This document shows, in pieces, positions 8,285 to 26,393 of a stretch of DNA of 30,368 bases. The DNA comes from an uncultured Candidatus Saccharibacteria bacterium (lineage in GTDB: Bacteria; Patescibacteriota; Minisyncoccia; Minisyncoccales; Staskawiczbacteraceae): contig CAZKUM010000002.1 in NCBI GenBank assembly GCA_964555955.1, positions 1 to 30,368 of the forward strand, given 5' to 3'. The notes under the pieces are model-generated. The model did no database searches. It was not told where the DNA came from and saw nothing but the letters and a program-made list of their open reading frames with translations. The first letter of the stretch is position 1, and every line of letters begins with the position of its first letter. The position numbers were made by a program, and so were the translations under genes.

Positions 8285-8291
8285 TTAAATC

Positions 8292-8334
8292 AAAAAAACA
8301 GCCCCAACTCGCGTAAAGCAAGCTGGGGCTTTTG
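8292..8334. terminator. Bidirectional terminator between gatB and the convergent orphan gene
   Basis: A-tract, AGCCCCA...TGGGGCT stem, T-tract. Confidence 0.75.
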
Positions 8335-8349
8335 GTTTGGCGGAGGGCC

Positions 8350-8727
8350 CTAGTATTGGGGTTTTGGCGTTGGGTCGGCGGCTCCGCCGAAATTTTCGAA
8401 TGGATTCGCGTGGCGCCCAAGCCCGTAGGAAAAGCAAGGAAGAATTCTTGGAGGAGTTGCTCTGTTTCCTAGCGGGCAAACCCTACGAAGAATTTTCAAC
8501 ATTTCTTTGTCTGGCATTCCTCCATAAATCCAGACTTCTCCGTTTTCAAGAATCGCAACTGTACAGCCGTCATCACAGCCCCAATGGCCGAGATGAAACT
8601 GAGGCGCTTGTATGGGCTCCTCTTCGTCCGATGTAGCATCGTAAACTGGCAAGCCGGTCACGTGAATGAACTTTTCCCTTACAAGCTCGTTCCTTTGGTC
8701 CACTAGTGGCAGTGTCGTCGTAGCCAT
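8350..8727 (-). CDS. Hypothetical protein, 125 aa (likely start ATG 8727)
   Basis: GGAGG SD 7 nt upstream, its own promoter and a terminator. GC-richer than its neighbours. Confidence 0.65.
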   Translation of the reverse strand: MATTTLPLVDQRNELVREKFIHVTGLPVYDATSDEEEPIQAPQFHLGHWGCDDGCTVAILENGEVWIYGGMPDKEMLKILRRVCPLGNRATPPRILPCFSYGLGRHANPFENFGGAADPTPKPQY

Positions 8728-8786
8728 AAATAGGCCTCCCTTATGCAAAAGTGAAAGAACAAGTATTGGTTAAAATCCAATAATTA

Positions 8787-8815
8787 ATCATATCATTTTT
8801 CAATGAAGATGTCAA
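8787..8815 (-). promoter_or_regulatory. Promoter of the 125-aa orphan, overlapping the miaA 3' end
   Basis: On the minus strand: TTGACA (8815-8810), 17 bp spacer, TG-A-TATGAT (-10 at 8792-8787). Confidence 0.7.
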
Positions 8816-15678: not shown

Positions 15679-15707
15679 TTGACACGATTAATTTTATATG
15701 ATATTAT
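15679..15707 (+). promoter_or_regulatory. Promoter of the 66-aa orphan, divergent from thrS
   Basis: TTGACA (15679-15684), 17 bp spacer, TG-A-TATTAT (-10 at 15702-15707). Confidence 0.75.
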
Positions 15708-15754
15708 TAATATAATAAGGTAAAGTGATTTTTCACAATTTTTGGAGAAAAACC

Positions 15755-15955
15755 ATGACTAAGGCTAAAGCTAAGGTTTTCAGCCAAGAAGAGGTGATAG
15801 AAGTCAGAGGGCCTAATTTGGGAAAACTTGAACAACGACTTGACTCGTTGAATCCTCAAGACAGAGGCTTAGAGCTCAAAAGAGCAGGAGCAGATGGAGA
15901 CGATTTCGTTTTCAAGTTTACACAGGCCAACCAGCCTTCCAAACAGCCCCAGTAG
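15755..15955 (+). CDS. Hypothetical protein, 66 aa
   Basis: GGAG SD before ATG 15755, its own promoter and terminator. Confidence 0.65.
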   Translation: MTKAKAKVFSQEEVIEVRGPNLGKLEQRLDSLNPQDRGLELKRAGADGDDFVFKFTQANQPSKQPQ

Positions 15956-15978
15956 GTCCCGTTAACTCGGGGGCACAT

Positions 15979-16017
15979 GCGCCAAGGTTTGTTTTACAGA
16001 CCGCGGCGCCTTTTTTT
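15979..16017 (+). terminator. Intrinsic terminator
   Basis: GCGCC-AA-GGTTTGT-TTT-ACAGACC-GC-GGCGC followed by T7. Confidence 0.75.
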
Positions 16018-17246: not shown

Positions 17247-20200
17247 CTATGATTCCCGCGGAACAAGAATTTCTTGCGCGTCGTCGGCTACAATTTTAAT
17301 TTCGCCATTTCGGTCGTCAACGCGGCCGGCAACAAAAATTATTTTATTTTCTTGCAAAGCAACAGGATTTCTTTCTAAAAGATTTGGGAAAATTACAACT
17401 TCTGTTTTGCCGGTTAAATCTTCAAGTTTCATAAACAGCATTGGCTTGCCGTTTTTAGTGATAATTTTTTTAACAGAAGAAACTAACCCGCCAACAATAA
17501 TTTTTTTATTTACAAAACTTGCGTCAATTCTTGAAATTGGCGTTGTTTTATTTTCAAAAAGTTTTTTAAAGCCGTACAAAGGGTGCGAGCTAACGTAAAG
17601 CCCAAGCAGTTCTTTTTCCCAGCCCAGTTTTTCAAAGTTGCTGGCAGGCGTGGCCGGTTCTAATTTTATTTCACTATTGATTTTTACTCCAGCTGACGCA
17701 AAAAGCCCCATTTGGTTTGAATTATTGTTTTTGTTGTTTTCTCTTGCAATTTCAAGCATTTTTTCTAAGTTTGTCAGTAATTGGTTTCTTTCGGCAAACT
17801 CGTCAAAAGCTCCGGCTTTTATTAAAGCCTCCATTGATTTTTTGTTTAAATCTTTAGATTTTACTCTGTGTATAAAATCGCTAATAGATGCAAATTTTCC
17901 GTTTGCTTTTTTTTCTTCAACAACTGCGTCTATAATATTTACCCCAACATTTTTGATGGCTAATAAACCAAACCTAATTTGATTTTTGCCCTCAACAACT
18001 GTAAAGTTTTTTAAAGATTCATTTATGTTTGGAGGCAAAACTTCAACATTCATTTTTTTGCACTCGTCAATTAAAAAGGCAATTCTTTCAACATCTGTTC
18101 TTTCTGAAGTTAAAACTGAAGCCATAAATTCAACAGGGTAGTGAGCTTTTAAGTAGGCTGTTTGGTAGGCAATTGTGGCATAAGCTGCAGAGTGCGATTT
18201 GTTAAATCCGTAAGCTGCAAAAGGTAAAATCCATTGCCATAATTCTTCGCCAACTTTTTTTGAAGCGCCATTTTTTACAGCTCCTTCAATAAATTTTGTT
18301 TCTTGAGCGTCTAAAAGATTTTTAATTTTTTTACCAACAGCTTTTCTTAAAACATCAGCTTCGCCCAAAGTAAACCCGCAAACTTCCTGGGCAATTTTCA
18401 TAAGCTGTTCTTGATAAATGCAAATGCCCTGTGTTTCTTTTAATATGGACTCTAATTTTGGATGCAAGTATTCTATTTTTTGACCTCCATGCTTTCTTGA
18501 AATATAATCTGGAATAAATTGCATAGGGCCCGGGCGATATAAAGCTACCATAGCGGTAATATCTTCAAAAGTTGTAGGATGAAGTTCTTTTAAATATCTT
18601 TTCATGCCATCGCTTTCTAGCTGAAAAACAGAAGTTGTTATGGCATCTTGCAAAAGTTTAAAAGTTTTTGCGTCGTCATAAGGAATTTTATCTAAATCAA
18701 TTTTTAAATTATTATGCAAAACATAAATGCGAGCCAAGGTGTCTTCTATTATGGTAAGGTTTTTTAACCCTAAAAAGTCCATTTTTAAAAGGCCTAAGTC
18801 TTCAATGCTGTGCATTTCGTATTGAGTTATAATGCCTTCTTCAGACTGGGTTGACCTTTGCAATGGGACAGAGTTGGTTAAAGAGTCGGCCGAAATCACA
18901 ATTCCGCAGGCGTGAGTTGAAGCATGGCGGGCAACTCCTTCAAGTTTTTTGCCTAAATCAATTAAGCGTTTTGCCTGGTCATCCATTTTATACATATCTT
19001 TAAACTCTGAAACTTTTTCTAATGTTTCTGCCAAATCCATGCCAGTTGGAATCATTTTTGCCAGCGAGTCGCAATAAGAATAAGTGTACTGCAAAGCCCT
19101 GCCAACGTCGCGAATAACAGCGCGGGCCGCCATTGTTCCAAAAGTAATAATTTGGGCTACATGGTCTTGGCCGTATTTTTCTGCAACATATTTTATAACC
19201 TCGTCTCTTCTTCTGTCGGCAAAATCTAAATCAATATCAGGCATAGAAATTCTTTCAGGGTTTAAAAATCTTTCAAAAAGCAAATTATGTTTTAAAGGGT
19301 CAACATTAGTGATATTGGTTAAATAGGCAACTAATGAGCCGCCGGCAGAACCTCTGCCGGGCCCCACAATTATTCTGTTTTCTTTTGCCCAGTTTACAAA
19401 GTCTTGCACAATTAAAAAATATCCTGCAAAGCCGGTTTTTTTAATTACGGAAAGTTCATAATTCATTCTTTCAATAATTAGATTTCGGTCAATATTTTCG
19501 CCCGCCTGCAACGCCTTCGGCTCGACCGTCTCGCTACGAGAAGCGTTACGGGCGGGCGTAGCCGATGCGGGCAGGCCAAATCTTGTTTTAAGCCCTTGCC
19601 AGCAAAGTTCTTCTAAAAATTGTTCTGCTGTTTTTTCTTCTGGCAACGAGAAAGTAGGCAATTTTGTTTTACCAAGCTCAATTTGCAAATTACACAGATC
19701 GGCTATTTTTTGCGTGTTTTCAATTGCCTCTGGGGTGTCTTTAAAATGTTCATGCATCGCTTCAGGGCTTATCATTGAAAAATTATCTTGAGCCATAGAC
19801 AGCCTTTCTGGGTCGTTTGCGTCAGCTCCCGTGTTTATTAACATTAAAACATCTTGGGCTTCTGCGTCTTCTTTTCTTAAATAATGTATGTCGTTTGTGG
19901 CAACTAAAGGTATGCCGGTTTTTTTAGAAAGTTCTATAAGCCTTTTGTTTGCGGTTGCTTGTTCTGGTATATTGGCATGGTGCTGTAATTCTAAATAAAA
20001 GTTTCCTTTGCCAAAAAAGGATTCATATTTTTTTGCGGTTTCTTCAGCTTCTTCGTTTTTGTTAGACAAAAGAAGCCGTGGAATTTTTCCCTGAATGCAG
20101 GCGGATAACCCAATTAAGCCCTCGGCATATTGGCTTAAAAGTTCTTCATCTATTCTGGGCTTGTAATAAAAACCTTCTAAATGCGCTTTAGAAACAAGCT

Positions 20201-20507
20201 TAACCAAATTTTTATATCCCTGCTCATTTTTTGCCAGTAAAATTAAATGATGCCTTCTTGAGTCTATGTTTGGCCTTTTGTCTTGCATTTTGTCTATGGC
20301 AACATAAACTTCGCAACCTATAATTGGTTTTATTCCTTTTATTTTTGCTTTTTTAAAAAATTCAATAGCGCCATACATTACTCCGTGGTCGGTTAAGGCA
20401 ACAGAATCCATTCCAAGCTCTTTTACATAATCTAAAAGCTCGTCAATTTTTGGCAGGCCGTCAAGAAGGGAATAGTGGCTGTGAACATGTAAATGAGTAA
20501 ATTTCAT
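17247..20507 (-). CDS. dnaE: DNA polymerase III alpha subunit, with a ~25-aa palindrome-derived insert
   Basis: PHP domain HLHVHSHYSLLDG, GPGRGSAGGSL, FERFLNPERISMPDIDLDF, LLKMDFLGL, YGFNKSHSAAY and a C-terminal OB fold. Confidence 0.98.
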   Translation of the reverse strand: MKFTHLHVHSHYSLLDGLPKIDELLDYVKELGMDSVALTDHGVMYGAIEFFKKAKIKGIKPIIGCEVYVAIDKMQDKRPNIDSRRHHLILLAKNEQGYKNLVKLVSKAHLEGFYYKPRIDEELLSQYAEGLIGLSACIQGKIPRLLLSNKNEEAEETAKKYESFFGKGNFYLELQHHANIPEQATANKRLIELSKKTGIPLVATNDIHYLRKEDAEAQDVLMLINTGADANDPERLSMAQDNFSMISPEAMHEHFKDTPEAIENTQKIADLCNLQIELGKTKLPTFSLPEEKTAEQFLEELCWQGLKTRFGLPASATPARNASRSETVEPKALQAGENIDRNLIIERMNYELSVIKKTGFAGYFLIVQDFVNWAKENRIIVGPGRGSAGGSLVAYLTNITNVDPLKHNLLFERFLNPERISMPDIDLDFADRRRDEVIKYVAEKYGQDHVAQIITFGTMAARAVIRDVGRALQYTYSYCDSLAKMIPTGMDLAETLEKVSEFKDMYKMDDQAKRLIDLGKKLEGVARHASTHACGIVISADSLTNSVPLQRSTQSEEGIITQYEMHSIEDLGLLKMDFLGLKNLTIIEDTLARIYVLHNNLKIDLDKIPYDDAKTFKLLQDAITTSVFQLESDGMKRYLKELHPTTFEDITAMVALYRPGPMQFIPDYISRKHGGQKIEYLHPKLESILKETQGICIYQEQLMKIAQEVCGFTLGEADVLRKAVGKKIKNLLDAQETKFIEGAVKNGASKKVGEELWQWILPFAAYGFNKSHSAAYATIAYQTAYLKAHYPVEFMASVLTSERTDVERIAFLIDECKKMNVEVLPPNINESLKNFTVVEGKNQIRFGLLAIKNVGVNIIDAVVEEKKANGKFASISDFIHRVKSKDLNKKSMEALIKAGAFDEFAERNQLLTNLEKMLEIARENNKNNNSNQMGLFASAGVKINSEIKLEPATPASNFEKLGWEKELLGLYVSSHPLYGFKKLFENKTTPISRIDASFVNKKIIVGGLVSSVKKIITKNGKPMLFMKLEDLTGKTEVVIFPNLLERNPVALQENKIIFVAGRVDDRNGEIKIVADDAQEILVPRES
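19500..19575. repeat. Nested palindromic insert within dnaE (encodes LPASATPARNASRSETVEPKALQAG)
   Basis: GC-rich 75 nt with CCCGCC/GGCGGG arms and an inner TCTCG-TAG-CGAGA hairpin. Confidence 0.88.
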
Positions 20508-20561
20508 AAAATAATCCTAATCTACGAATTTATCCGAATGCAACAAATATCCGGATGCTTT

Positions 20562-20622
20562 ATTTTACTTTTTATGTTCTGCGCGGTCAACTATTGACAA
20601 TATATTATTTAGGGTGTATAAT
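20562..20622. promoter_or_regulatory. Back-to-back divergent promoters for dnaE (minus) and the small peptide (plus)
   Basis: Minus strand: TTGACC (20590-20585), 17 bp, TAAAAT. Plus strand: TTGACA (20594-20599), 17 bp, TATAAT (20617-20622). Confidence 0.8.
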
Positions 20623-20669
20623 TAAAATATAGGGAATCAAAACCTTAAATCCTGTTTTGGAGATGAAAG

Positions 20670-20795
20670 ATGACGGTTAAGGAATCGAAAGAAGTTAGGG
20701 GATCAAAGTGGGTTTTAGCTATGTTTATAGCTGCTTTTGCGGCTGTAATCTTGGGTATTGCCCATGCGGCGATTTGCCAGATGTTGGGAAAGTAG
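20670..20795 (+). CDS. Small hydrophobic peptide, 41 aa (below the ORF-track cutoff)
   Basis: MTVKESKEVRGSKWVLAMFIAAFAAVILGIAHAAICQMLGK; consensus promoter, GGAG 7 nt upstream, and a downstream terminator. Confidence 0.65.
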   Translation: MTVKESKEVRGSKWVLAMFIAAFAAVILGIAHAAICQMLGK

Positions 20796-20863
20796 GCAGG
20801 GACCCTCTCCTATAAGAGCGGTTCGCAAGATGGCCGGTTGAGCTTGTAGCTCCTGGCTGTCGG

Positions 20864-20901
20864 GGCCGTTGTGTGTCGCGCGACATGCAACGGCCTTTTT
20901 T
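20864..20901 (+). terminator. Long-stem intrinsic terminator
   Basis: GGCCGTTGTGTGTCG / CGACATGCAACGGCC (two G-U pairs) followed by T6. Confidence 0.85.
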
Positions 20902-20929
20902 ATTGCATATACAATGGTAAAATAAGAAA

Positions 20930-21550
20930 ATGATTTATCCAAATTTTGTTGAAGAAAAAAAATTATGGAAAAGGGGATATAGGTTTGTTGCCGGGTTAGA
21001 CGAAGCAGGCAGAGGGCCTTTGGCTGGCCCAGTTGTGGCTGCCGCCGTAATTATTTTAGATTATAAAAAAATAAAAATAAAAAATGTTAAAGATTCAAAA
21101 AAAATGACGCCAAAGGCGCGTGAAGAAATTTATGAAATTTTAACCAACCATCCGCATATTAAATGGGGGATTGGCATTGTTTCAGAAAGGTTGATAGATA
21201 AAATAAATATTTTAGAGGCAACAAAACTGGCTATGAAAAAATCAGTTAAAAATTTGAGCCCTGATTTTTTAGTTATAGACGGAAATTTTAATATTAATTC
21301 TGATATTCCTCAAAAATCTATAATAAAAGGAGATTTAAAAGTTTTTTCAATTTCTGCCGCATCAATTATTGCCAAAGTGACAAGAGACAGAATAATGCAT
21401 AATTTTCATAAAAAATATCCGCAATATGGGTTTGACAAGCACAAGGGATACGGCACAGCTCATCATTTTAAAATGATAAAAAAATACGGCCCGAGTAAAA
21501 TTCACAGAAAAAGTTTTTATCCAGTAAGTATTTTTATTGAGGCAAAATAA
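20930..21550 (+). CDS. rnhB: Ribonuclease HII
   Basis: VAGLDEAGRGPLAGPVVAAA, VKDSKK, VIDGN, IIKGD, ISAASIIAKVTRD, KHKGYGT and HRKSF. Confidence 0.98.
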   Translation: MIYPNFVEEKKLWKRGYRFVAGLDEAGRGPLAGPVVAAAVIILDYKKIKIKNVKDSKKMTPKAREEIYEILTNHPHIKWGIGIVSERLIDKINILEATKLAMKKSVKNLSPDFLVIDGNFNINSDIPQKSIIKGDLKVFSISAASIIAKVTRDRIMHNFHKKYPQYGFDKHKGYGTAHHFKMIKKYGPSKIHRKSFYPVSIFIEAK

Positions 21551-23860: not shown

Positions 23861-24325
23861 ATGAATAAGTCATTAGCATTTTTATTAGTAATCGCAGGAG
23901 TAATTATTTTTGTTTTGGGCGGAGGCGCTGGCGTTTTTTATCAAACACAACAGAGCCAATTGGGAATTATAGGTGCTCCGCAAAATAGCGCGGCAGAAAC
24001 TGCGTTAAAATCATTGTCTTCAAAAGTTATTCCCTCAATTGTAGCTTTTGGCGAAGTGTCAAACATATCTGGAAAAAATATTACATTAAAAAATGCTGGG
24101 GAAAGTTTAACAATAAAAATTGATGACAATGCGCAAATTTCTTCTTTTAATGCAGCCCCGGCAAAAGGAACAACTGCTCCTACTCAAGCAAAAGCTGAAT
24201 TTAAAGATATTAAAATTGGCAATACCTTAAGTATAAATTTAAGGCTTTTATCTAGCGGCACTTTAAAGGGCATGTCGGTTGTTATTGTTAATTCTTTGCC
24301 AAACACAAACGTTGGTCCAAAATAA
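23861..24325 (+). CDS. Membrane-anchored protein with a small beta-rich (OB-fold/DUF5666-like) domain
   Basis: N-terminal TM with GGGAG; GEVSNISGKNITL...IKIGNTLSINL. Confidence 0.75.
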   Translation: MNKSLAFLLVIAGVIIFVLGGGAGVFYQTQQSQLGIIGAPQNSAAETALKSLSSKVIPSIVAFGEVSNISGKNITLKNAGESLTIKIDDNAQISSFNAAPAKGTTAPTQAKAEFKDIKIGNTLSINLRLLSSGTLKGMSVVIVNSLPNTNVGPK

Positions 24326-24338
24326 TATTATAGAATTT

Positions 24339-26393
24339 ATGGCAAAAATAAATTCGTTTTACTTGTTTTCTTTTGGATTAATTGCCTTATTAGCTGGTTT
24401 TGTATTATATTCGTCTATAGATCCGGCTGTGATTATAACTTCTGCGCAATCTTCAAGCTCTGGTTCAAGCTCCAGCTCAAGTTCCAGCTCAGGCTCTAGC
24501 TCAAGTTCAAGTAGTTCCAGTTCAAGTAGCTCTAGTTCAAGTAGCTCTAGTTCAAGCAGTAGTTCAAGTTCAAGTAGCGGAGGATCGTGCGACCCTAGTT
24601 GCCAAGTTGGAACAGTTAGTGATAGTTTTTGTAAAGATATTAATACCGTTGCTAATAGAGATACAATAACAACGTGCGACTTAGGTGTTTGTAATACTAG
24701 CGAATTGGTTCAATGGGCTCCTTGTCCGCCTCCAGAGTTGATAGAAAAATATTGTGGGCCCAATGGAACTATTAAAGAAAAGAAAAGAGTTTATTATTGC
24801 CGGCAAAATGGCAATCAAGCCGCTTGCGTGGCAGGAGTTCAATCTGGCACAACAGGCAACTGTGGCGCATGCGGTCCTACAGGAAACACACGATGCGGAG
24901 GCGGAGCTGGTCAATCGAGTATAATGATAGAAGTAAACTGTCCGTCTTGTCAGGGAGCTGGAATATGTTTTCCTAATCTTAGCTGGAAAAAACTTGCAGA
25001 TTGCCCCATTAAACAAGATATAACATTGCCTCCAATGTGCGTAAATAATGTTTTATGCAGCGTTGTAATAAGCTGGCCTGGCACTTGCACTGAGCTTTTC
25101 CCTGGCAGTACTGCCGCCTGTGATGGCGCAACAGTTGGTGTTGTTTGCACAGACCCTTGCAGCGGTGGCGGCGGAGGCGGTTCTAGTTCAAGTTCAAGCA
25201 GTTCTAGTTCAAGCAGTTCTAGCTCAAGTTCAAGTAGCAGTTCAAGCAGCTCAAGTTCAAGCTCCAGCGGAGGCGGCCCTTGTGTAGATGGCAGTCACTC
25301 TGAGTGCATAGGCAACCAATGCGTTTGTGTTAATGGCACTGGTATAAATCAATGTAATTATCCTGGCTCTTATTGTTCTGGGTCTAGCAGTTCAAGCAGT
25401 TCTAGCTCAAGTTCAAGTAGCTCTAGCTCCAGTAATGGGGGAGGCACTGGCTGTATATTAAATGGCAAAGGAGTGCCTGATGGCACTACTAAATCTTGTT
25501 TCTGTGGCGGCACTACTCCTTGCGTAAATGGCGTATGGGCTCCTTGTTCAGGTTCTCATTCTTCCTGTGATGGCGGCCAATGTAAATGTGTTTCTGGCGC
25601 AGGCGATGACCTTTGCGCAACAGACAGCGCTTGTGTGCCGGCAAACGGCTATCCATACGCAGATCATTTGCAAGCTTTCACTGGTAGTTATTGCACAGGA
25701 ATTCCAGGCGTTGGAACTGCCATATTTAGGTGGAATTATGAACATACTGCAAAAATGGGAGAGGTAAAATTTGAAATTCAGGTAGATGATAATCCTAACT
25801 TTTTATCGCCTGAAGTTGACAGGGTTTATGGCAATCTTAACTATCCGGCAGGGGCTTTAAATGAACAAATGATTTTTGTGCAATTAGATCCTTCGTCTCA
25901 TTATTGCGACACTAATAATTTGTCTAACCAATATCCTAATAACCAATGCGACCATATAAACTTTAACACAGCTTATTATTGGAGGGTAAAAGTGTGGGCA
26001 AAAGATTATACTGCTTCAGAATGGAAGCAGGCTTCACAAACATTTACATACGGATACACTCATCCTTGCCCTAACCCAAACTATAATTTTAATCCAACTA
26101 CTCCGCTTGTAAACAGTTCAACTTCTCTTGTAGACACTTCTGTTTGTTATACCTCCACCGGAACTTATTCTTGCAACACAGGGCCAAATACTTCATACAC
26201 TTGGGATTTTGGCGACGGTTCCGCTAAAAGTTATACTAAAGGAAATGTTTCTCATACATATACTTCAACCTGTTCTCATTACTCAAGCTTGAAAGTTTGC
26301 GACGAAATAGGCTGCGGTTATATTTCTAAAAATGCTTTTATCCTTCCTTGCTCAAGCACCTTGCCTGGCAACAAAGAAGTTCCGCCATTCTAA
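24339..26393 (+). CDS. Large surface protein: N-terminal TM, three poly-Ser tracts, Cys-rich modules, an Fn3/Ig-like region and a C-terminal PKD domain (start probably ATG 24339)
   Basis: Ser tracts at 24450-24578, 25182-25268 and 25383-25433; YYWRVKVW (Fn3-like); YTWDFGDGS...NVSHTY (PKD). Confidence 0.85.
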   Translation: MAKINSFYLFSFGLIALLAGFVLYSSIDPAVIITSAQSSSSGSSSSSSSSSGSSSSSSSSSSSSSSSSSSSSSSSSSSSSGGSCDPSCQVGTVSDSFCKDINTVANRDTITTCDLGVCNTSELVQWAPCPPPELIEKYCGPNGTIKEKKRVYYCRQNGNQAACVAGVQSGTTGNCGACGPTGNTRCGGGAGQSSIMIEVNCPSCQGAGICFPNLSWKKLADCPIKQDITLPPMCVNNVLCSVVISWPGTCTELFPGSTAACDGATVGVVCTDPCSGGGGGGSSSSSSSSSSSSSSSSSSSSSSSSSSSSSGGGPCVDGSHSECIGNQCVCVNGTGINQCNYPGSYCSGSSSSSSSSSSSSSSSSSNGGGTGCILNGKGVPDGTTKSCFCGGTTPCVNGVWAPCSGSHSSCDGGQCKCVSGAGDDLCATDSACVPANGYPYADHLQAFTGSYCTGIPGVGTAIFRWNYEHTAKMGEVKFEIQVDDNPNFLSPEVDRVYGNLNYPAGALNEQMIFVQLDPSSHYCDTNNLSNQYPNNQCDHINFNTAYYWRVKVWAKDYTASEWKQASQTFTYGYTHPCPNPNYNFNPTTPLVNSSTSLVDTSVCYTSTGTYSCNTGPNTSYTWDFGDGSAKSYTKGNVSHTYTSTCSHYSSLKVCDEIGCGYISKNAFILPCSSTLPGNKEVPPF

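What the first reader, a model, noticed from the sequence alone, without database searches (positions are those of the whole stretch)
20585..20901. Unannotated 41-aa hydrophobic peptide with a structured 3' UTR, divergent from dnaE: type I toxin-like unit
Seen: perfect TTGACA-17-TATAAT promoter back-to-back with the dnaE promoter (their -35s form GTCAA-CTA-TTGAC), GGAG SD, and a peptide with a charged N-terminus, one TM helix (WVLAMFIAAFAAVILGIAHAAIC) and a terminal Lys. About 100 nt of GC-rich 3' UTR follows, with two hairpins (CTCT-CCTATA-AGAG; GCCGG..GAGC-TTGTA-GCTC-CTGGC) and a ~15-bp terminator. Known: type I toxins (Ldr/Fst/Hok classes) are 30-50 aa single-TM peptides on structured mRNAs with antisense antitoxins. 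Inference: a type I TA module, or a small membrane regulator co-regulated with dnaE. No antisense promoter was identified.
Basis: partly seen in the sequence, partly recalled or inferred. Interest (0 to 1): 0.62.

Follow-up and report, generated by a model that had tools for sequence, protein, structure and literature searches.

The report
Small membrane-peptide gene with conserved RNA tail
Between dnaE and rnhB of an uncultured groundwater bacterium (Candidatus Staskawiczbacteria-like) sits a real, strongly promoted gene for a 41-residue membrane peptide followed by a conserved folded RNA tail, but nothing tested here supports calling it a toxin-antitoxin pair.

Summary

The ORF looks translated. 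Its codon usage fits this genome only in that frame. A roughly 27%-diverged relative in a groundwater run has 10 of 16 known changes at third codon positions and mostly conservative replacements (P = 0.0004).

The peptide is an orphan, with no relative among 5.8 billion proteins and no match in Pfam, NCBIfam or PADLOC.

The 3' block 20814-20861 is nearly identical in contigs whose upstream sequence differs. Its variation keeps the hairpins. The second stem and the terminator base recur in related species, where the same slot holds GC-rich RNA without an ORF, other small membrane or secreted proteins, or nothing.

The type I toxin reading is not supported: no antisense promoter or terminator was found, the ribosome-binding region is not strongly sequestered, and no toxin family matches. 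No RNA data exist.

Best reading: a lineage-specific small membrane-protein gene on an older RNA scaffold, possibly bifunctional. Moderate interest.

The parts
20562..20590 (-). dnaE promoter (-35 TTGACC 20590-20585, 17-nt spacer, -10 TAAAAT 20567-20562)
   Evidence: 10/12. The -10 block ATTTTAC is invariant in six related loci.
20586..20598 (.). Palindrome GTCAA-CTA-TTGAC formed by the two back-to-back -35 boxes
   Evidence: The core CAAC[T/C]ATTGAC is conserved in L012, L016, L020 and L022, with a variant CAATCATTGAC in L026.
20594..20622 (+). Promoter of the unit: TTGACA-17-TATAAT (12/12). The predicted start is A20629.
   Evidence: best site in the window. Logan contigs X14 and X2#4 are identical up to 20633 and then diverge.
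20629..20669 (+). 41-nt 5' UTR with GGAG (20659-20662) 7 nt before the ATG
   Evidence: Mean unpaired probability of the initiation region is 0.54. The same TTTTGGAGA-N6-7-ATG context occurs at the other small ORF at 15757.
20670..20795 (+). ORF for the 41-aa peptide: charged N-terminus (residues 1-13), one helix (residues 12-39) with a GxxxA motif, and a terminal Lys
   Evidence: Codon log-odds +9.4. Coding-type substitution pattern in relative X2#5.
20796..20826 (+). P1 hairpin: outer stem GGACC/GGUUC kept in all variants, inner part variable
   Evidence: Variants X7#3, X9 and X15.
20814..20861 (+). Most conserved block (P1 3' strand, linker GCAA, P2): 0-1 change in X15 and X9 although their upstream sequence differs
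20829..20861 (+). P2 hairpin: GAUGGCCGG/CUGGCUGUC closing stem and inner GAGCU-UGU-AGCUC
   Evidence: Structure-preserving variation. A homologous closing stem encloses 95-140 nt in L012, L020 and L022.
20862..20901 (+). Intrinsic terminator: 16-pair stem at 20862-20897 and T-run at 20896-20901
   Evidence: The base GCCGT...ACGGC-T(n) is shared with L012, L020 and L022. Indels on both arms in X7.
20915..20932 (+). Neighbouring rnhB promoter and start: extended -10 TGGTAAAAT, 6 nt, then ATG (leaderless). It marks the downstream limit of the unit.
   Evidence: The same TGnTAnAAT-6 nt-ATG is seen in six relatives, and L016 has TATAAT-6 nt-ATG.

Best explanation
This is a stand-alone, monocistronic transcript of about 275 nt (20629 to about 20901). 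It is driven by the strongest promoter in the window and encodes a 41-residue single-pass membrane peptide found only in a narrow Candidatus Staskawiczbacteria-like lineage.

Shown:
- The promoter, SD, ORF, hairpin and terminator anatomy.
- Codon usage and a substitution pattern typical of a translated gene.
- One predicted helix spanning residues 12-39.
- A 3' block (P1 3' strand, linker and P2) that is more conserved than the ORF and varies in ways that keep the stems.
- Homology of the P2 closing stem and terminator base with GC-rich, ORF-less transcripts in the same dnaE-rnhB slot of related species.

Inferred:
- The peptide inserts with its positively charged N-terminus in the cytoplasm.
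- It acts through helix-helix packing in the membrane (AAxxAA and GxxxA faces), as an abundant small membrane component or modulator of a partner protein rather than as a guarded toxin.
- The 3' module is an older RNA scaffold. It at least stabilises the mRNA and insulates the leaderless rnhB promoter from read-through. Because its sequence, and not only its structure, is conserved, it may also act as an RNA, which would make the transcript bifunctional.
For: Anatomy.

Coding:
- The frame-0 codon log-odds is +9.4. Real 40-codon windows give 14.6 +/- 7.0, and off-frame windows give -26 +/- 16 with a 95th percentile of -3.
- Relative X2#5 differs at 16 of 60 known nt, split 3/3/10 by codon position (binomial P = 0.016).
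- 14 of 20 residues are identical and the replacements are V>A, V>I, R>K, G>E, V>I and I>L. The BLOSUM score is reached by 0.04% of random substitution sets.
- The stop codon is kept in X2#5. X7#3 has an in-frame earlier stop after the conserved GIxH.

Helix: Kyte-Doolittle 15-residue maximum 2.76. AlphaFold predicts a helix at 12-39, mean pLDDT 79.

RNA module:
- 20814-20858 is identical in X15, and 20815-20864 differs at one base in X9, behind unrelated upstream sequence.
- In the X2#4 contig this block is about 91% identical, while its ORF region did not align at the 80% threshold.
- Changes are U.G>U-A (20859), G-C>G.U (20850), a loop change (20845) and a bulge change (20839). A 21-nt insertion lengthens the P2 helix.

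Slot homology.

Independence from rnhB: a conserved extended -10 ends 6 nt before the rnhB ATG in loci with or without the unit.
Against: - There are no transcript or translation data. No RNA run holds the region.
- The coding test rests on about 60 known nucleotides of one low-coverage contig, plus fragments. The relatives could not be retrieved as full sequences.
- The peptide has no homologue anywhere else, so de novo or very young origin, and hence weak function, is possible.
- GC3 of the ORF (46%) is above the genome mean (29%).
- The C-terminal end of the ORF is the most variable part.
- The function of the peptide and any trans-acting role of the RNA module are inference only.
Confidence: 0.55

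Rival explanations
1. Type I toxin-antitoxin module. The peptide would be a membrane-damaging toxin. An undetected antisense or 3'-overlapping RNA (as in TxpA/RatA or BsrG/SR4) would pair with the long structured 3' UTR and trigger degradation or block translation.
For: - The peptide has the right size and a single hydrophobic helix with charged ends.
- The 3' UTR is long, conserved and structured, so it could be an antisense target.
- The gene is present or absent among close relatives, as is usual for toxin-antitoxin loci (joints that skip the unit).
Against: - No sigma-70-like promoter (9/12 or better) or extended -10 lies on the minus strand between 20630 and 20930. The hairpin has no T-run on the minus strand.
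- The SD/AUG region is not locked in structure.
- No Pfam, NCBIfam or PADLOC toxin family matches.
- No paralogues are present in the sequence held.
- A consensus promoter plus a rare SD implies strong constitutive synthesis.
- No paper in the searched library links type I toxins with the candidate phyla radiation.
Confidence: 0.12
2. The unit is primarily a non-coding regulatory RNA. It would belong to the same fast-evolving RNA gene that fills the dnaE-rnhB slot in related species, and the ORF would be incidental or secondary.
For: - L012, L020 and L022 carry GC-rich, strongly structured transcripts (z = -3.5, -4.5, -7.0) with no credible ORF in the same promoter/terminator frame. They share the P2 closing stem and terminator base.
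- The 3' block is more conserved than the ORF.
- SD motifs are rare in this genome, so GGAG alone is weak evidence for translation.
Against: - Third-position bias and conservative replacements in the ORF of a relative.
- In-frame codon usage typical of real genes.
- The 5' 170 nt is AU-rich and weakly structured, like an mRNA.
- No Rfam family matches at any threshold.
Confidence: 0.18
3. Cis-acting leader or attenuator. The transcript would be the regulated 5' leader of rnhB (riboswitch-like or leader-peptide attenuation at the terminator), or a device coupling dnaE and rnhB expression.
For: The terminator ends only 28 nt before the rnhB ATG. In relatives the structured domain is closed by a stem that lies 3-4 nt before the terminator, which resembles an aptamer followed by an expression platform.
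Against: - rnhB has its own extended -10 (TGnTAnAAT; TATAAT in L016) exactly 6 nt before its ATG in every relative examined, including those with no unit at all (L024, L026), so it is probably leaderless and independent.
- The terminator is very stable, with a 16-bp stem, and no competing antiterminator appears in the fold.
Confidence: 0.05

Closest known systems
Type I toxins with 3'-overlapping antisense antitoxins (B. subtilis TxpA/RatA, BsrG/SR4; E. faecalis Fst/RNA II), compared from my own knowledge
   Same: A peptide of 30-60 aa with one transmembrane helix, encoded on a short monocistronic mRNA with a long structured 3' region.
   Different: No antisense promoter or terminator was found, the translation initiation region is not strongly sequestered, there is no sequence-family match and there is no paralogue. 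Toxicity is untested.
Small regulatory or accessory membrane proteins of bacteria (for example MgrB, AcrZ, MgtS, CydX, KdpF), compared from my own knowledge
   Same: Under 50 aa, single-pass helix, small-xxx-small packing motifs, own promoter and terminator, lineage-restricted.
   Different: No partner protein or operon context points to a target. There is no homology to any of these proteins.
Dual-function RNAs (SgrS/SgrT, S. aureus RNAIII/hld, B. subtilis SR1/SR1P) and 3'-UTR-derived sRNAs, compared from my own knowledge
   Same: A small ORF in the 5' part, followed by conserved stem-loops and a terminator that are conserved independently of the ORF.
   Different: No target, seed or processing site has been identified. 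No RNA data exist. A duplex search against the window's gene starts was uninformative.
Rfam families
   Same: None.
   Different: No family reaches its threshold in the window. The only hits at E up to 10 are chance-level matches to ssnA and GOLLD. The related loci also have no hits.

Membership tests
Type I toxin-antitoxin system | Small (<60 aa) hydrophobic peptide with a transmembrane helix | tested here: met
   41 aa. Kyte-Doolittle 15-residue maximum 2.76. Predicted helix at residues 12-39.
Type I toxin-antitoxin system | Antisense (cis or 3'-overlapping) RNA antitoxin gene | tested here: inconclusive
   No minus-strand promoter (9/12 or better), extended -10 or terminator lies in 20630-20930. 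Consensus scans cannot exclude a weak or non-canonical promoter, and no RNA-seq is available.
Type I toxin-antitoxin system | Toxin mRNA folded so that the ribosome-binding site is sequestered (translation-inactive primary transcript) | tested here: not met
   The initiation region has mean unpaired probability 0.54. Only a weak 3-bp helix touches GGAG, and the centroid structure has no 5'-3' clamp.
Type I toxin-antitoxin system | Sequence membership in a described toxin family (Hok/Gef, Ldr, Fst, TisB, Ibs, TxpA/BsrG and others) | tested here: not met
   Pfam gives only a sub-threshold DUF3040 match (13.6 bits against a 24.7 cut-off). NCBIfam and PADLOC give nothing.
Type I toxin-antitoxin system | Growth arrest or membrane damage on expression, relieved by the antitoxin RNA | not testable with these tools
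   This needs an experiment.
Translated small-ORF membrane protein | ORF under protein-level purifying selection | tested here: met
   There are 16 changes in 60 known nt of relative X2#5, 10 of them at third positions (P = 0.016). The BLOSUM score gives P = 0.0004. The sample is limited to one relative.
Translated small-ORF membrane protein | Codon usage of the host genome in the proposed frame | tested here: met
   The score is +9.4 in frame 0, against -36.8 and -6.7 in the other plus-strand frames. It lies within the range of real genes.
Translated small-ORF membrane protein | Direct evidence of transcription and translation | not testable with these tools
   No RNA run holds the stretch.
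Dual-function RNA / 3'-UTR riboregulator | RNA element conserved independently of the ORF, with structure-preserving variation | tested here: met
   20814-20861 is nearly invariant behind different upstream sequences. Changes are U.G>U-A, G-C>G.U, loop and bulge changes, and a helix-extending insertion. Only a few partial sequences are available.
Dual-function RNA / 3'-UTR riboregulator | Base-pairing targets or a processed 3' fragment | not testable with these tools
   The duplex search was uninformative, and there are no RNA data.
Riboswitch or attenuator leader of rnhB | Downstream gene depends on read-through of the regulated terminator | tested here: not met
   A conserved extended -10 ends 6 nt before the rnhB ATG in loci with and without the unit.

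The most novel reading that the evidence does not exclude
The dnaE-rnhB spacer of Staskawiczbacteria may be a hypervariable expression slot. A conserved divergent promoter and a conserved closing stem plus terminator frame a cargo that turns over between species: structured RNA, small membrane peptide, secreted protein, or nothing. The window's 41-aa peptide could then be a membrane protein born recently inside, or grafted onto, an ancestral non-coding RNA gene. That would give a bifunctional transcript of a kind not yet described in the candidate phyla radiation.
Probability: 0.2. Interest if true: 0.65.

Novelty: new member of a known kind. Interest (0 to 1): 0.4.

Why it matters
Small proteins and regulatory RNAs of candidate-phyla-radiation bacteria are almost unstudied. 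This unit is a compact case where a membrane peptide gene and a conserved RNA module share one transcript. The same genomic slot in sister species shows how such units turn over.

If the peptide is translated and the RNA tail has its own function, the locus would be a tractable example of small-gene birth on an RNA scaffold in a reduced genome. If not, it is simply one more orphan small membrane-protein gene.

It should not be annotated as a toxin-antitoxin system on present evidence.

Tried and rejected
Known RNA families
- Rfam at gathering threshold over the whole window, and at E up to 10 over 20400-21000, gave nothing meaningful. The same was true for six related loci.
- ARAGORN found no tRNA or tmRNA.
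- I considered SRP RNA, 6S RNA, RNase P RNA and tmRNA by eye and rejected them. The conserved motifs are absent, the fold is not rod-like, and the unit is missing from close relatives.

Peptide homology
- The word-indexed search of 5.8 billion proteins found only the peptide itself.
- phmmer against 1.84 billion representatives found the peptide itself and one spurious repeat protein.
- PDB sequences gave only a designed helical repeat protein.
- tblastn against plasmids found nothing.
- tblastn against all held DNA found no paralogue.

Collection scans
- The single metagenome scan, with GCGGTTCGCAAGATGGCCGG, returned six chance hits in 62-71% GC contigs.
- The viral contig scan returned nothing.
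- The peptide is too short for the search for related loci.

Sequencing runs
- No RNA runs hold the region.
- Eight further DNA runs held no additional relatives.

Other ideas
- A duplex search of the 3' module against 28 gene starts was not discriminating.
- The idea that the GC-rich 3' UTR belongs to a repeated GC-rich element, like the dnaE insertion, was rejected.
- The anti-SD idea (CUCUCC in P1 pairing with GGAGA) was rejected because variants X7#3, X9 and X15 lack that segment.
- An 8-mer, ATGACGGT, shared with L012 is at chance level.

Full report
**Context.** The window has 34.8% GC. Its RNase HII is closest to proteins of Candidatus Staskawiczbacteria (candidate phyla radiation, Parcubacteria), at 64% identity to a GTDB genome and at most 77% to any protein in the large collection. 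The DNA occurs at low depth in groundwater metagenomes. The finding lies in the 422-nt spacer between dnaE (17247-20507, minus strand) and rnhB (20930-21550, plus strand).

**Observation check.**
- TTGACA-17-TATAAT at 20594-20622 scores 12/12 and is the best promoter match in the window.
- The dnaE promoter TTGACC-17-TAAAAT lies on the other strand at 20590-20562. The two -35 boxes form GTCAA-CTA-TTGAC at 20586-20598.
- GGAG (20659-20662) lies 7 nt before the ATG at 20670, and the ORF ends at 20795.
- The following 105 nt have 55-65% GC. They fold into P1 (20796-20826), P2 (20829-20861) and a 16-pair terminator (20862-20897) with a T-run. The energy is -56 kcal/mol, z = -5.2 to -5.8, and the minimum-free-energy and centroid structures are identical.
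- The plus strand folds much better than the minus strand (-102 against -67 kcal/mol), as expected if the structure is read as plus-strand RNA with G.U pairs.

**Is the ORF a gene?** Three lines of evidence say yes.
- Codon usage: a log-odds score trained on 25 long ORFs of the window gives +9.4 in the proposed frame. Real 40-codon windows give 14.6 +/- 7.0, and off-frame windows give -26 +/- 16 with a 95th percentile of -3. The two other plus-strand frames score -36.8 and -6.7.
- Substitution pattern: a Logan contig from another groundwater run (X2#5) carries a diverged copy.
  - Over the 60 nucleotides I could read with certainty it differs at 16 positions, 3/3/10 by codon position (P = 0.016).
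  - VKESKEVRGS becomes AKESKEIKES and FAAVILGIAH becomes FAAILLGIAH.
  - A BLOSUM score this high is reached by only 0.04% of random substitution sets. The stop codon is retained.
  - Another variant (X7#3) keeps GGTATTG[G/C]CCAT (GIxH) and then has an in-frame TAA.
- Predicted structure: the product has a charged N-terminus, and residues 12-39 form one helix (hydropathy; AlphaFold mean pLDDT 79).

Two caveats apply. GGAG is weaker evidence than it looks, because only about 3 of 25 genes here have any SD-like motif. The other promoter-proximal small ORF (15757-15957) does share the same TTTTGGAGA context.

**The peptide is an orphan.**
- The only other occurrence is an identical copy on a 909-nt ENA contig.
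- phmmer against 1.84 billion representatives adds only a spurious repeat protein.
- Pfam, NCBIfam, PADLOC, PDB sequences and plasmids give nothing.
- No paralogue is present in the DNA held.

**The 3' module is the most conserved part.**
- Short contigs from four other runs contain 20814-20861 almost unchanged. X15 has 0 changes in 45 nt and X9 has 1 in 50. In both, the sequence immediately upstream is unrelated to the window's.
- One 425-nt contig (X2#4) is collinear with the whole unit. It aligns at 80% or better only at the promoter (20615-20633) and at 20817-20880.
- The changes seen are U.G>U-A (20859), G-C>G.U (20850), a loop change (20845) and a bulge change (20839).
- A 21-nt insertion, when folded, lengthens the P2 helix.
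- In P1 the outer stem GGACC/GGUUC is kept (A-U>G.U in X15), while the inner part is replaced.
- Indels on both arms of the terminator in X7 are not multiples of three. This argues against any coding on either strand there.

**Relatives at greater distance.** I fetched contigs for RNase HII proteins of 71-77% identity.
- dnaE and rnhB are always divergent neighbours. The dnaE -10 and the back-to-back -35 core CAAC[T/C]ATTGAC are conserved.
- The cargo between them differs:
  - L012-L015, L020 and L022 hold 225-300 nt of GC-rich, strongly structured sequence (z = -3.5, -4.5, -7.0) with no credible ORF.
  - L016 and L017 hold a 61-aa hydrophobic ORF behind GGGGAGG.
  - L018 and L019 hold a 109-aa protein with a hydrophobic, signal-peptide-like N-terminus.
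  - L026 holds the promoter and a stub of about 30 nt.
  - L001, L021 and L024 hold nothing.
- Joints in two runs that skip 434-494 nt show relatives lacking the unit.
- Apart from the promoter, blastn finds similarity only at the 3' end.
- Alignment shows a shared CCTGG(C/T)...GTC, then 3-4 nt, then GCCGT...ACGGC-T(n).
- In the independent minimum-free-energy folds of L012, L020 and L022, that 3' strand closes a multi-branched domain of 95-140 nt (GCCAG/CUGGC, GGCGACCAG/CUGGUC-A-GUC, GACAGCUG/CGGCUGUC). In the window it closes only a small hairpin.
- I therefore read P2 plus the terminator as the remnant of an older RNA gene in this slot, and the ORF-bearing 5' part as lineage-specific.
- No Rfam family matches any of these units.

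**Independence from rnhB.** An extended -10 (TGnTAnAAT) ends exactly 6 nt before the rnhB ATG in the window (20915-20923) and in L012, L018, L020, L022, L024 and L026. L016 has TATAAT at the same 6-nt distance. This holds whether or not the unit is present. rnhB is therefore probably a leaderless mRNA with its own promoter, and the unit is not its leader.

**Test of the type I toxin idea.**
- The peptide fits the class in size and hydrophobicity.
- The minus strand of 20630-20930 has no promoter-like site at 9/12 or better and no extended -10. The terminator hairpin has no T-run in that direction.
- The initiation region is not strongly sequestered: mean unpaired probability 0.54, no long-range clamp.
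- No toxin family matches.
- Strong constitutive signals fit an abundant harmless product better than an unguarded toxin.
- No RNA data exist to settle the antisense question.
- The searched literature has no paper that mentions both type I toxins and the candidate phyla radiation.

**Conclusion.** The most likely reading (0.55) is a real, strongly expressed, lineage-restricted gene for a single-pass membrane peptide. Its 3' UTR is a conserved RNA module inherited from an older RNA gene in the same slot. The peptide's mode of action (helix packing in the membrane, N-terminus inside) and any riboregulatory role of the tail are inferences.

Rivals are a mainly non-coding RNA (0.18), a type I toxin with an undetected antitoxin (0.12) and a cis-acting leader (0.05).

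The finding is a new member of known kinds (small membrane proteins, possibly dual-function RNAs). The hypervariable slot with a conserved frame is the more unusual aspect.

Noticed in passing
window 19497-19571 (within dnaE, minus strand): DnaE carries a 25-aa in-frame insertion (GLPASATPARNASRSETVEPKALQA) that six related DnaE proteins lack. It is encoded by a 71%-GC palindromic stretch in a 35%-GC genome. This recalls palindromic elements that insert in frame into genes. No second copy is present in the window.
   Followed up: partly
window 20915-20932; L012, L016, L018, L020, L022, L024, L026 upstream of rnhB: rnhB appears to be a leaderless mRNA. An extended -10 TGnTAnAAT (TATAAT in L016) ends exactly 6 nt before the ATG in the window and seven related loci.
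   Followed up: partly
L012:752-978, L020:2268-2490, L022:2168-2470: Related species carry GC-rich, strongly structured transcripts without an ORF (z = -3.5, -4.5, -7.0) in the same dnaE-rnhB slot. They are framed by the same promoter and a similar terminator, and match no Rfam family. They are a candidate new RNA family of Staskawiczbacteria.
   Followed up: partly
window, whole (25 long ORFs): Only about 3 of 25 genes have an SD-like motif upstream, and most starts sit in A/T-rich sequence. Intergenic near-consensus TTGACA-17-TATxAT promoters are common (8815 minus strand; 15679, 16058, 16582 and 20594 plus strand).
   Followed up: partly
window 15679-16016: This is a second compact small-gene unit. 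It has a promoter TTGACA-17-TATTAT (11/12, with TG), the same TTTTGGAGA ribosome-site context, a hydrophilic ORF of 66 aa (15757-15957) and a GC-rich 3' hairpin with a T-run.
   Followed up: no
Logan contigs X14 and X2#4 laid on window 20600-20633: Two contigs from other groundwater runs are identical to the window through the promoter up to 20633 (about +5 of the transcript) and then diverge abruptly. This suggests that the cargo is exchanged or diverges right after the start site.
   Followed up: partly
window 8285-8792: This 500-nt spacer has up to 64% GC. It holds a bidirectional-looking terminator at 8300-8330 and a 132-aa TTG-start ORF on the minus strand (8350-8748) behind an 11/12 promoter at 8815-8787.
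   Followed up: no
window 24497-25454 (within ORF 24279-26393): These are degenerate 15-nt tandem repeats (AGTTCAAGTAGCTCT-like) that encode serine-rich tracts in a 704-aa protein.
   Followed up: no
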